A stretch of DNA of 63,949 nt, counting the filler, from Kipferlia bialata (Eukaryota), in the NCBI GenBank assembly GCA_003568945.1. It is 6 parts of 6 records of this genome, joined end to end, with 100 filler letters (N's around TTAATTAATTAA, not from the genome) between each part and the next. Parts side by side here need not be neighbours in the genome. Positions count along the whole stretch, not along the records: positions 10,736 to 21,366 come from BDIP01001393.1; 5 more parts are not named here. One strand, written 5' to 3'. How positions within the stretch are numbered: the first letter of the stretch is position 1; each line of letters starts with the position of its first letter. This document shows, in pieces, positions 10,935 through 14,500 of this stretch. Both the position numbers and the translations under genes were made by a program. The notes beneath the pieces are model-generated. The model saw only the letters and a program-made list of their open reading frames with translations, did no database searches and was not told the origin of the DNA.

Positions 10935-11553
10935 CTGCAGGTCTGCCAGTGTGTCTGGGTTCATCCTGTTACGCAGGGAGGGCCAGTTCTGAGGATCAGA
11001 TAGGTATATTCGCTATTGATACATACACAGATAGAGAGAGAGAGAGAGGAGAGCCAGTTCTAGACTATATATATACAAATACACTAATGTACCTGAGCCA
11101 TAGCATACATACAGGCTGCACTGGATGTGGGTGCCACCTCCTCTCTCATACATATAATAATATATACATATTCTACACTGTATATACACTATATGCATAT
11201 ATACTACTTACCTGAGCCATTGCATACATACATGCAGCTGATGAGGTTGGTGCCACCTCCTCCCTCATGACCATGGCAATGAGGTTGAAGAGAAGGACAA
11301 GGATCTGGTATCAGCATATAGTATGGGTGCATGTATTAATGAATATATATATATATATATGAGCATATATATGCCTCATGACCATGGCAATGAGGTTGAA
11401 CAGCAGTACTAGGATCTGATGTCAGTATATAGTATGGGGGTGTATGTATTAATGAACACATATATATATATACACTTATGCCTCATGACCATGGCAATCA
11501 GGTTGAACAGTAGTACCAATATCTAGGGTGAGGTATGAATATAAAATTCATAT

Positions 11554-11596
<43 letters not shown>

Positions 11597-14500
11597 TCAT
11601 GACCATGGCAATGAGATTGAAGAGAAGGACAAGGATCTGGTGTTATAGAGAGAGAGAGAGAGAGAGAGAATGACCATGGCAATGAGGTTGAAGAGAAGGA
11701 CAAGGATCTAGAGGGTTAGATGAAGAGAGAGAGAGAGAGAGATACATACCTCGAACTGCCCCTGGTCGAAGTGCACGCAGCATAGCATATACATATATAC
11801 AATTTCATATACATTGTATAGATGATGTAGTCAGAGACGGAGAGAGAAAGAGATGTACCTCGAACTGCCCCTGGTCGAAGTGCACGTTGGGTGATGTGGT
11901 TGATGCCACTAGATGGCCGAAAGAGTCTGAGAAGATCTCATTGACTGTCTCATGGTTGAGACTGGAGTAGCCTAACGGGTAGAGAGAGAATTAGGGGTGT
12001 AGGTAGGGAGAGAGAGAGAGAGAGAGAAGGAGTCTGAGAAGATCTCATTGACAGTCTCGTGGNNNNNNNNNNNNNNNNNNNNNNNNNNNNNNNNNNNNNN
12101 NNNNNNNNNNNNNNNNNNNNNNNNNNNNNNNNNNNNNNNNNNNNNNNNNNNNNNNNNNNNNNNNNNNNNNNNNNNNNNNNNNNNNNNNNNNNNNNNNNNN
12201 NNNNNNNNNNNNNNNNNNNNNNNNNNNNNNNNNNNNNNNNNNNNNNNNNNNNNNNNNNNNNNNNNNNNNNNNNNNNNNNNNNNNNNNNNNNNNNNNNNNN
12301 NNNNNNNNNNNNNNNNNNNNNNNNNNNNNNNNNNNNNNNNNNNNNNNNNNNNNNNNNNNNNNNNNNNNNNNNNNNNNNNNNNNNNNNNNNNNNNNNNNNN
12401 NNNNNNNNNNNNNNNNNNNNNNNNNNNNNNNNNNNNNNNNNNNNNNNNNNNNNNNNNNNNNNNNNNNNNNNNNNNNNNNNNNNNNNNNNNNNNNNNNNNN
12501 NNNNNNNNNNNNNNNNNNNNNNNNNNNNNNNNNNNNNNNNNNNNNNNNNNNNNNNNNNNNNNTATATGTAGACACACAGGTAGAGAGACAGAGAGAGAGA
12601 GATAGAGATATACAACAGGAATGCCATCTACTTCTTGACAGAGGCAGAGGCTGAATGTTAGCGATAACTCTACATATGGATAGAGAGAGAGAGAGAGAGA
12701 GACAAATAGTAATATGATGGCAATGTCATCTGCTTCTTGACAGAGGCTGGATATTAGTACATAGTAGAGAGATGGGTAACATATATACATAGTGTAAGAC
12801 TTGCGGATGCCAGCTTCTAGATATGTCGAGGTATCTACGACACAAACAGAGGCCGGAGGGTCAGATGTACTCATATCAATGGAGTATCATAGAAATTATC
12901 CACATACCTGCCAGAATTGGGGCTGGGAAGTTGGCGAAGTGACCCTCAATCATCCTGAGAGTAAGGACAACGGTATATGGGCTGGGGAGGGGGGGGGGGG
13001 TACAGCCAGAGAGAGAATCAAACATAGTGAAGACCTACCCCTTCTCTCTCTCTCTCTCTCTCTCTCTATGTATATATATATGCATACCTGACAGGCAGTG
13101 CCAGTCCATAGTCAATGCCTGGCCTGGCCCACTGACTGGACACACGGTGGTAGCTGAGGGTGAGATACATACACTGATATATATATATTTATATATACAT
13201 AAGTATCACTTTGTTTATATATCCCATTGACTGGCCATACGGTGGTAAGATATATACATACACATCAATACAAGCACACATATATATACTGTCTGGAGAC
13301 ACGGTGGTAACTGGTGGTAAGGGTGTATACACGTAGGGTGTATACACACACTAATTAACATGCTACTGGCTAGAGACACGGTACCTTGGTGTGATCTTCT
13401 GGGCTGCCTTGAGCAGGTGGCACACACATATATAGTATACATATACTAGAGATATACTATATATTTATATATGTATACCTAGGTGTGATCTTCTGGGCTG
13501 CCTTGAGCAGGTGGCATGTGCCGGACATGATGGCTGAGGTGGCCTAGAGGTAAGGATAGATACATACATATATATACATGCATGAATATATATATATAGA
13601 GAGAGAGAGATAGAGAGTATTAGTTTGCCAGACATGATGGCATAGGTGGTCTATAAGCATAGTGTACACACAATGTACACCAGACGGATTTCATATAAAA
13701 CGATATTAGTAACGATATTTATATATGTACTTACCTCCACACTAGGCTGTGTATCGAGTAGCTTCTTGGCCATGCCTCTCAGTCCCTCCCAGTAGCTCTG
13801 AAATCAGGGTGTAGAGGGAGAGAATATGGGTGTAGAGAGAGAGAGAGAGAGAAAGTGATAGTACCTCTCTGTTCTGGCGGCCGATCTCCTCGGGAAGAGT
13901 ATAATACATGTATAATACATGTATAATATACATCCACAGTATATATATTATATATATAAGCCTATATGTATAGAATACATATATACGTCAGTACCTTTCT
14001 GTTCTGGTGGCCGGCCTCCTCGGTCATGGCTGCCTGGGGGGTGAGGATAGAATGCAATATTATATAGTATTTTATATACATATAATATACATAACACAGT
14101 AGGGGGTGAGGGGGGGATACACAGAGAGTCCAGGTACTACTATTTCACAATAGTATCCTCTCTATATCTATCTATATTCATATGCATACCTGCTGCAGAG
14201 GCCCTGTCTCCCCATCGGGTGCGGCCTTCTGGAAGACCTCAAGGATCTGGGGTAAAGGGTGTAGAGGGAGAGAATTAGGGGTGTAGAGAGAGAGAGAGAT
14301 ACATTCTGGAAGACCTCAAAGATCAGGGGAAAAGGGTGTAGAGGGAGAGAATAAGGGGTGTAGAGGGAGAGAGAGAGAAAGAGAGAAAGGTACCTCCAGC
14401 GTGAGTGTCTTCCTCACTGGCTGACAGTAAACGAGTGTGTCACAAAGGGTATATACACACAATATAAATACACATTATATAGTATACATACACACACACA

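What the first reader, a model, noticed from the sequence alone, without database searches (positions are those of the whole stretch)
11091..11716. Consistent polarity and coincident breakpoints: [5' half]..[intact exon]..[3' half], a Russian-doll exon replacement signature
Seen: in the cases examined, acceptor+5'-half copies lie upstream and 3'-half+donor copies lie downstream of the intact exon, and the halves often join into one full exon with a short overlap. Overlaps: ATGAG here; TGAC at 18311-18628; GAGCCCA at 19623-20055; TGTTGCACCA at 8261-8569; GATG at 51638-51926. The four 5' halves here all read ILVLLFNLIAMVM with different codons (ATC CTT GTC CTT CTC / ATC CTA GTA CTG CTG / ATA TTG GTA CTA CTG). 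Inference: this is what results if a break inside an old exon is filled with a complete exon plus flanks from a diverged allele, leaving the old halves outside with a microhomology or target duplication; repeated rounds would nest. Three 5' halves end AG|gcat, a GC-type donor, so joining the outer halves could also be a route to intron gain.
Basis: partly seen in the sequence, partly recalled or inferred. Interest (0 to 1): 0.85.

Follow-up and report, generated by a model that had tools for sequence, protein, structure and literature searches.

The report
Retired exon alleles archived in introns
In Kipferlia, a free-living relative of Giardia, many introns hold half-copies of the neighbouring exon that spell nearly the same protein with different codons and that the main mRNA of the gene tested skips; they are likely leftovers of earlier exon versions displaced by recombination with genetically distant partners, which would make them a fossil record of outcrossing inside one genome.

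Summary
Real and unusual, but mostly not single-event Russian dolls. The window is six joined Kipferlia bialata contigs; four carry about 150 partial exon copies. Polarity holds in 133 of 133 copies, but any one-junction duplication gives that. The five cited overlaps are real, yet only 6 of 23 two-sided exons overlap by 0-13 nt (null 3.4-5.5), and 5' and 3' halves co-occur independently. The striking signal is different. Halves differ from the live exon, and from each other, almost only at third codon positions (dN/dS about 0.12, dS about 0.32). Homology often fades at the splice site, and copies sharing one breakpoint still differ synonymously, with three or more variants. They therefore came from diverged live alleles, not from decaying tandem copies. 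A spliced transcript uses only intact exons, skipping 37 halves; across the window about half of the dead splice sites score as high as the live ones. Best reading: one-sided inter-allelic repair seeds a half, and unequal exchange with incoming alleles then retires successive live halves. Intron gain through a GC donor is unsupported. No donor haplotype could be found.

The parts
11212..11304 (-). Live (intact) 93-nt exon of gene A, a 58%-identical paralog of K. bialata KIPB_004798
   Evidence: Whole exon is one piece of a 5847-nt spliced contig of run X2, joined directly to exon 11971-11859; co-linear with P0001
11670..11707 (-). Dead 5' half 1 (38 nt, identical to live exon, different acceptor flank), runs into (CT)n
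11595..11636 (-). Dead 5' half 2 (42 nt, 1 synonymous change), ends AG|gcat
11481..11522 (-). Dead 5' half 3 (42 nt, 7 base changes in 6 codons, all synonymous), ends AG|gcat
   Evidence: X2 depth 0 in bin 11322-11614
11374..11415 (-). Dead 5' half 4 (42 nt, 4 synonymous changes), ends AG|gcat; the spacer after it resembles the spacer after half 3
11091..11149 (-). Dead 3' half (57 nt + GT donor), 8 synonymous codon changes and no amino-acid change; overlaps the 5' halves by ATGAG
   Evidence: on one DNA contig with the live exon, 10801-11296, 0 differences
11750..11971 (-). Upstream live exon (11971-11859) and its dead 3' half (11777-11750)
10804..10988 (-). Downstream live exon (10988-10935) and its dead 3' half (10838-10804)
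10935..21162 (-). Gene A as a whole; 48 halves at score >=14, of which 37 lie inside the stretch whose mRNA length closes without them
18312..18627 (-). Cited cluster: 5' half, live exon 18545-18468, 3' half; TGAC overlap; both halves nearly identical to the live exon
19623..20052 (-). Cited cluster: 5' half identical to the live exon 19944-19859, two 3' halves with 8 and 6 synonymous changes sharing one junction; GAGCCCA overlap
   Evidence: not covered by the read laying
8261..8568 (-). Cited cluster in CPSF2: 5' half, live exon 8459-8384, 3' half; 10-nt overlap
667..10467 (-). CPSF2 gene (850 aa as annotated), 29 exons, 35 halves
   Evidence: Hand-built chain of intact exons equals NCBI's K. 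bialata CPSF2 at 850 of 850 residues; halves
3732..4479 (-). CPSF2 array of six 5' halves before live exon 3915-3815; two shared breakpoints; three-state synonymous sites
552..578 (-). 3' copy of the last CPSF2 exon beyond the stop codon: same eight residues, TAG in place of TAA
51638..52738 (-). Cited cluster: eight 5' halves, live exon 51836-51749, one 3' half; all four combinations of synonymous variants within 20 nt
43850..53421 (-). Gene D (hydrophobic, transporter-like by eye, not tested); 40 halves with strong synonymous bias
22522..29457 (+). Gene F on the plus strand: same polarity, 21 halves, but no synonymous bias (0.070/0.062/0.087)

Best explanation
The half-copies are skipped by the main mRNA and are likely retired pieces of formerly working exon alleles, left behind when recombination with a diverged homologous chromosome replaced part of the exon. 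Step 1, seeding (inferred): introns are microsatellite-rich and barely alignable between alleles, so a break inside an exon can find homology mainly within the exon. One broken end invades the other allele, copies the rest of that exon with its splice site and some intron, and is then end-joined to the other broken end. The result is one intact, chimeric exon plus one dead half on the side given by geometry. Step 2, amplification (inferred): the live exon of an incoming allele pairs out of register with an existing dead half, and the exchange turns that live half into a new dead half with the same inner breakpoint. Step 3, tolerance (skipping shown for gene A; mechanism inferred): a half has only one splice site, so a spliceosome that pairs sites across the exon ignores it. 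Each unit adds about 100 nt to an intron. Three-state synonymous sites would need more than the two homologs of one diploid, that is repeated outcrossing among lineages about 30% apart at synonymous sites. A minority of two-sided cases may be single Russian-doll events.
For: Synonymous bias: 275 synonymous, 107 missense and 1 stop codon difference in 1505 codons; dN/dS 0.12, dS 0.32. Position-3/position-2 ratio 6.6 (95% interval 4.4-11.0, one half per exon side, 95 sides), where decay of a dead tandem copy allows about 2 (the bound is my argument). Dead against dead: 20/12/157. 33 pairs sharing an inner breakpoint differ 9/2/75 by position, and 12 of 34 arrays share a breakpoint (null 5.7, p 0.003). 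Four-gamete mosaics and three-state sites. Of 21 halves at least 97% identical to the live exon, only 3 have intron flanks above the 99% null, though flanks are related on average. Halves leave at least 23 nt of the exon uncovered in 55 of 56 and 55 of 58 cases (18.9 and 21.1 exceptions expected under uniform breakpoints), as an invading end would need. No whole-exon duplicate among 159 hits. In 24 of 24 introns with both types the dead donor precedes the dead acceptor. mRNA length closes at six anchors without any half. Dead sites score at least as high as live ones in 33 of 67 acceptors and 33 of 64 donors. Metamonads lack Ku and DNA-PKcs and rely on homologous recombination and alternative end joining (PMC8516963, passages). 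K. bialata k-mers suggest a diploid (PMC5874029, passages).
Against: No donor allele was seen. The DNA run showed no alternative letters over 8.7 kb (contigs drop variants, and the 95% cut would miss a diverged haplotype), two JGI metagenome scans found no relative, and no whole genome was available. Gene F shows the same anatomy without synonymous bias, so plain duplication or weak constraint also occurs. 28 of 146 halves have no difference (14.4 expected) and divergence is over-dispersed. 15 of the 33 same-breakpoint pairs come from one array. The bound on half length could come from selection against long decoys or from erosion of the inner end. Two-sided overlaps never exceed 13 nt and 10 of 23 sit within -5..+13, above two of five nulls at p<0.05, which leaves room for coupled events. 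Steps 1 and 2 are inferred from static sequence.
Confidence: 0.6

Rival explanations
1. Single-event Russian doll as the main route: a break in the old exon is filled by a whole exon plus flanks from a diverged allele, both old halves stay outside, and gaps or missing halves come from later erosion.
For: Six real overlaps of 4-13 nt, four near-abutting cases, and no overlap above 13 nt (p 0.006 for one permutation null, 0.07-0.39 for three others). Synonymous bias fits. Outer copies are more decayed.
Against: Overlap count not above null; 46 one-sided against 23 two-sided exons; independent co-occurrence. At 19944 the 5' half is identical to the live exon while the 3' halves differ at 6-8 codons, and at 11304 the outermost halves match the live exon. 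It needs two non-homologous junctions aimed at the right exon, and it does not explain arrays with one shared breakpoint.
Confidence: 0.17
2. Ordinary tandem duplications on one chromatid with one breakpoint in the exon, kept because they are harmless, then decaying, with some conversion from the live exon.
For: Explains polarity fully. Fits gene F and the halves with no differences. Some junctions continue the phase of a neighbouring microsatellite (mean 1.6 vs 0.3 nt over 26 junctions; a few high values are inflated by mismatched extension).
Against: Predicts differences spread over codon positions (ratio about 2 at most) and random differences between dead copies; observed 6.6 and 20/12/157. 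Predicts matching intron flanks for near-identical halves; seen in 3 of 21.
Confidence: 0.08
3. The halves are functional: rare alternative splicing joins 5' and 3' halves or swaps them in, so selection keeps their protein sense, and joining the outer halves creates a new intron.
For: Synonymous bias and retained strong splice sites (AG in 63 of 67, GT in 54 of 62). One live GC donor exists in CPSF2.
Against: No excess of donor motifs at 5'-half ends and 4 of 71 acceptor motifs at 3'-half starts. The main transcript skips 37 halves, and annotated CPSF2 uses only intact exons. A copy also lies beyond the stop codon. Most exons lack a matching partner half.
Confidence: 0.07
4. Assembly artefact: haplotypes of a heterozygous diploid stitched in tandem.
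For: Short-read assembly of a likely diploid (PMC5874029, section 7 and passages).
Against: Separately built contigs of a DNA run cross the junctions with no differences at even depth. Up to eight copies with three-state sites exceed two haplotypes. Halves lack inner splice sites, so they are not pieces of an allele with an extra intron.
Confidence: 0.03

Closest known systems
Internal (partial-exon) tandem duplication, and intron gain by tandem genomic duplication (review PMC3443670, passages read; Gao and Lynch 2009 seen only as a cited title, paper not held)
   Same: Adjacent, same-strand copies of part of an exon with one splice site; same polarity; introns lengthen.
   Different: Here the copies differ synonymously from the live exon and from each other, flanking homology is often lost at the splice site, and no new splice junction is used.
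One-sided invasion / aborted SDSA finished by end joining (named in PMC9299229 passages and in the reference list of PMC4888836; the detailed mechanism is recalled)
   Same: One homologous and one end-joined junction; copying from a homologous donor; short microhomology at some junctions.
   Different: Known from induced breaks and transgenes. Here it would be natural, at more than one copy per exon in four of five genes, between alleles about 30% apart at synonymous sites, and followed by array growth.
Tandemly duplicated, mutually exclusive exons (recalled)
   Same: Exon-like copies inside introns that keep protein sense.
   Different: Those are whole exons with both splice sites and appear in mRNA; these have one site and are skipped by the main transcript.
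Silent partial cassettes feeding an expressed gene by conversion (trypanosome VSG, Borrelia vls, chicken Ig pseudo-V; recalled)
   Same: Silent partial copies and mosaic patchworks of variants.
   Different: Those vary the protein. These are almost purely synonymous, sit beside each exon of housekeeping genes such as CPSF2, and flow appears to run from live to dead.
[quoted passage not shown]
   Same: Short direct repeats around an insertion in the six overlapping cases.
   Different: The insert is a complete working exon, and the outer halves are not spliced together in the main transcript.

Membership tests
Simple tandem partial-exon duplication | Adjacent, same strand, 5' parts upstream and 3' parts downstream | tested here: met
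   133 of 133
Simple tandem partial-exon duplication | Recent copies match across the splice site into the intron | tested here: not met
   3 of 21 near-identical halves have flanks above the 99% null
Simple tandem partial-exon duplication | Dead copies diverge without regard to codon position | tested here: not met
   55/34/284 and dead-dead 20/12/157; gene F is the exception
One-sided invasion plus end joining from a diverged allele | One visible non-homologous junction per event; halves occur singly | tested here: met
   46 one-sided vs 23 two-sided exons, independent co-occurrence
One-sided invasion plus end joining from a diverged allele | The retained end keeps a minimum stretch of exon homology | tested here: met
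   Uncovered remainder under 23 nt in 1 of 56 and 3 of 58, expected 18.9 and 21.1; selection could give the same
One-sided invasion plus end joining from a diverged allele | Microhomology at the end-joined junction | tested here: inconclusive
   Microsatellite phase continues 1.6 vs 0.3 nt over 26 junctions, driven by a few cases
One-sided invasion plus end joining from a diverged allele | Donor allele with the matching exon and intron exists in the cell or population | not testable with these tools
Unequal exchange between live exon and dead half | Copies share the inner breakpoint but carry different live-allele variants | tested here: met
   12 of 34 arrays (null 5.7); pair differences 9/2/75; four-gamete mosaics
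Single-event Russian-doll insertion | 5'-half end coincides with 3'-half start above chance | tested here: inconclusive
   6 of 23 vs 3.4-5.5; 10 of 23 vs 5.0-7.8 for the wider window
Single-event Russian-doll insertion | Both halves arise together | tested here: not met
   Odds ratio 1.3, p 0.54
Single-event Russian-doll insertion | Outer halves both differ from the inner exon as one old haplotype | tested here: inconclusive
   Fails for the outermost halves at 11304 and for 19944; possible at 51836 and for the inner halves at 11304
Mutually exclusive duplicated exons | Each copy has acceptor and donor | tested here: not met
   No full copy among 159 hits; no inner donor excess
Mutually exclusive duplicated exons | Copies appear in mRNA | tested here: inconclusive
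   Absent from the main transcript; contigs cannot show rare forms
Intron gain by duplication or break repair | New donor and acceptor join the outer pieces in mRNA | tested here: not met
   mRNA carries the intact exon; no branch point before the 3' half at 11149; no live GCAT donor
Silent-cassette antigenic conversion | Cassettes change the protein | tested here: not met
   dN/dS 0.12

The most novel reading that the evidence does not exclude
Kipferlia runs an exon-replacement ratchet: recombination among lineages about 30% apart at synonymous sites can use little but 50-150 nt exons for homology, so each exchange swaps in part of a new allele and files the old one in the intron. One genome then archives several extinct or unsampled alleles per exon, giving population genetics and evidence of outcrossing in a fornicate from a single assembly, driving intron growth in 100-nt steps, and forcing animal-style exon definition on a protist with a reduced spliceosome.
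Probability: 0.45. Interest if true: 0.87.

Novelty: new variant of a known kind. Interest (0 to 1): 0.72.

Why it matters
Whether and how fornicates outcross is an old question (recalled; the genome paper has no word starting 'meio'). If the halves are retired live alleles, one assembly records repeated exchange among very distant lineages, and that record can be read genome-wide now. It would also give a concrete route to intron lengthening that needs no transposons (median intron 322 nt with halves, 123 nt without). And it offers thousands of natural decoy splice sites for testing exon definition in a protist, where short introns are expected to use intron definition (PMC2397502, passages), in a species with a reduced spliceosomal protein set (87 of 174; PMC6679479, passages). 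It also warns that part of this genome's intron sequence is exon-derived, which can mislead gene callers.

Tried and rejected
Whole-exon duplication followed by decay: predicts both polarities; 0 of 133 reversed. Paralog as donor: the only homolog found for gene A is 58% identical and the halves encode the live protein, not the paralog; the CPSF2 search gave one single-member cluster; both searches are weak evidence of absence. Second-order selection on halves as spare parts: rejected by argument only, since exchange frequent enough to select them would also erase a dS of 0.3. Two homologs of an asexual diploid as the only source: rejected by argument from three-state synonymous sites. Directional AT decay: position-3 changes S>W 114 vs W>S 83, too weak and not specific to dead copies. 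Read laying covered only 10736-19500, so the 19623-20055, CPSF2 and 51638-52738 clusters have no RNA or DNA read test; its junction table was swamped by repeat noise, only 8 pieces of the transcript were listed, and runs X3 and X4 laid nothing. Two metagenome scans found nothing. Pfam gave no family for P0001 or the CPSF2 exons. Three look-ups of earlier findings were empty. Literature: nine searches found no description of this pattern; the 33 papers holding Kipferlia plus intron were seen as a listing of 20, three of them read in passages. The genome paper has no word starting 'duplicat'. Subscription journals are mostly not covered and no supplements were read.
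Full report
Source and setting. The window is six contigs of 10.3-10.6 kb joined by N-flanked spacers. An exon at 901-1044 matches K. 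bialata CPSF2 at 100% on a contig of 10635 nt, the length of the first piece, and my chain of intact exons equals that protein at 850 of 850 residues. The finding lies in another gene (gene A, minus strand), which aligns without gaps at 329 of 564 and 48 of 85 identities to K. bialata KIPB_004798, a paralog with no Pfam family. Introns are rich in (AT)n and (CT)n and end in a branch-point-like motif close to the AG.

The observation. The six pieces at 11091-11716 are as described, with two corrections: the outermost half is 4 nt shorter, and the two outermost halves carry the live codons. I curated 98 exons in five genes on four contigs (two proved to be one exon). They have 159 partial copies at score 12 or more: 75 upstream 5' halves, 69 downstream 3' halves, 15 internal fragments and no full copy. 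A stricter search over the whole window and both strands gave 133 copies, all in an adjacent intron or 3' flank and all with the expected polarity. The two other contigs showed no such copies in the self-alignment; their exons were not curated. Contigs of DNA run X1 cross several junctions, including 10801-11296, with no differences at depth 354-453, so this is not a scaffolding artefact, though X1 may be the assembly's own reads.

Polarity is geometry. Any duplication with one junction inside an exon puts the 5' part upstream or the 3' part downstream. It rules out whole-exon duplication followed by decay, but does not single out the Russian-doll model.

Coincident breakpoints are weak. After dropping 6 fragments and trimming 8 ends by hand, 23 exons have both half types. 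Six overlap by 0-13 nt (five nulls expect 3.4-5.5; p 0.09-0.51). Ten lie within -5..+13 (expected 5.0-7.8; p 0.007, 0.04, 0.10, 0.15, 0.18). None overlaps by more than 13 nt, and 13 leave gaps of 8-58 nt. Eighteen exons have only 5' halves and 28 only 3' halves; co-occurrence is independent (p 0.54). A few coupled events remain possible.

The halves came from working alleles. Against the live exon they show 275 synonymous, 107 missense and 1 stop codon difference, dS 0.32 and dN 0.038. With 4 nt trimmed from inner ends, 146 halves differ at 55/34/284 sites by codon position; resampling one half per exon side gives a position-3/position-2 ratio of 6.6 (4.4-11.0). A dead tandem copy decaying beside a conserved exon cannot much exceed 2. 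Dead halves differ from each other 20/12/157, so they did not diverge while dead. A copy of the last CPSF2 exon beyond the stop keeps the residues and swaps TAA for TAG. Gene F is an exception, with no bias. Of 21 halves at least 97% identical to the live exon, 3 have clearly matching intron flanks; flanks overall are related but far apart (29 of 67 and 13 of 62 above the 95% null), as allelic introns under fast turnover would be.

Arrays. Twelve of 34 arrays share an inner breakpoint (null 5.7, p 0.003), and the 33 pairs that share one differ 9/2/75 by position; 15 of these pairs come from one array. The eight halves before 51836 show all four combinations of variants within 20 nt, and the arrays at 11304, 3915 and 51836 have three-state sites. 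A shared junction with refreshed, synonymous-only exon sequence is what unequal exchange between an incoming live exon and a dead half would give. The farthest copies carry more first+second-position change (25/578 vs 19/1036, p 0.006), in line with outward ageing, although the focal locus runs against it.

The halves are skipped. A 5847-nt contig of run X2 (listed as probably RNA, and spliced) joins 11859 directly to the whole exon 11304-11212. Its coordinates match my exon chain at six anchors. The one unknown stretch, 69 nt in an assembly gap, equals the 23 residues of the paralog there. Thirty-seven halves lie in that interval. Inner ends have no excess of donor motifs (24 of 75 vs 27% of random intron windows); 4 of 71 3' halves start with branch point plus YAG, although a bare YAG is somewhat commoner than random (22 of 71 vs 18%); and the only live GC donor is GCAA. 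Yet dead sites are intact (AG 63 of 67, GT 54 of 62) and score at least as high as the live site in 33 of 67 and 33 of 64 cases. In all 24 introns with both types the dead donor comes before the dead acceptor, so no cryptic exon forms. I infer pairing across the exon. Rare isoforms cannot be excluded from contigs.

Mechanism. Halves almost never cover nearly the whole exon: fewer than 23 nt are left uncovered in 1 of 56 and 3 of 58 cases against 18.9 and 21.1 expected. That fits an invading end that needs exon homology, although selection against long decoys or erosion could do the same. Some junctions continue a microsatellite's phase (suggestive only). Metamonads are reported to lack Ku and DNA-PKcs and to depend on homologous recombination, with alternative end joining full or partial (PMC8516963, passages), and K. 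bialata is reported as likely diploid (PMC5874029, section 7 and passages). I therefore favour one-sided inter-allelic repair as the seed and unequal live-dead exchange as the amplifier (0.6). Shown: the structure, polarity, synonymous bias, shared breakpoints, mosaics and skipping in gene A. Inferred: the repair route, the existence of distant alleles, outcrossing and exon definition.

Relation to known systems. It works like one-sided gene conversion finished by end joining, and looks like internal partial-exon duplication, but fails two tests of the latter (flank identity, codon-blind decay). It is not a set of mutually exclusive exons, not intron gain and not an antigenic cassette system. 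Nine literature searches found no account of it; papers were seen as listings, and seven were read in passages or one section (PMC5874029, PMC6679479, PMC8516963, PMC4888836, PMC3443670, PMC9299229, PMC2397502). No supplements were read, and subscription journals are mostly outside the library.

Verdict. Observation partly confirmed, interpretation partly supported; a new variant of a known kind; interest 0.72. The main gap is that no donor allele has been seen.

Noticed in passing
window 10636-10735, 21367-21466, 32096-32195, 42819-42918, 53540-53639: 100-nt spacers join six unrelated contigs sorted by length; neighbours across them are not linked.
   Followed up: yes
window 32196-42818 and 53640-63949: Two contigs have no half-copies, including a multi-intron DUF382 (SF3B2-like) gene, a chaperonin-like gene and RPS17, while four contigs are full of them; the process is patchy.
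   Followed up: partly
window 22522-29457 (+): Gene F has the same anatomy without synonymous bias; weak constraint or plain duplication.
   Followed up: partly
window 1774 and 1647 (-): The live CPSF2 exon ends at a GC donor while its dead 3' half has a GT donor; the annotated protein uses the GC site.
   Followed up: partly
window 500-645 (-): Several further short copies of the CPSF2 stop-codon region lie in the 3' flank, so the process is not confined to introns.
   Followed up: partly
window 14227-14361, 17047-17158, 13806-13830 (-): Tandem copies of the branch-point and pyrimidine tract alone, without or with a broken AG.
   Followed up: no
window 19500-19560 (-): A short exon start with no donor that keeps the frame by my reading; the paralog has about 55 residues here, so exons may be missing or mis-assembled.
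   Followed up: no
window 33859-36585 (+): GC-rich, nearly intron-free gene with RING-like and repeated TRAF-like zinc-finger motifs and an acidic repeat (motifs by eye).
   Followed up: no
window 53640-53730 and 63850-63949: A similar stretch of about 80 nt occurs near both ends of the last contig on opposite strands, possibly the ends of a mobile element.
   Followed up: no
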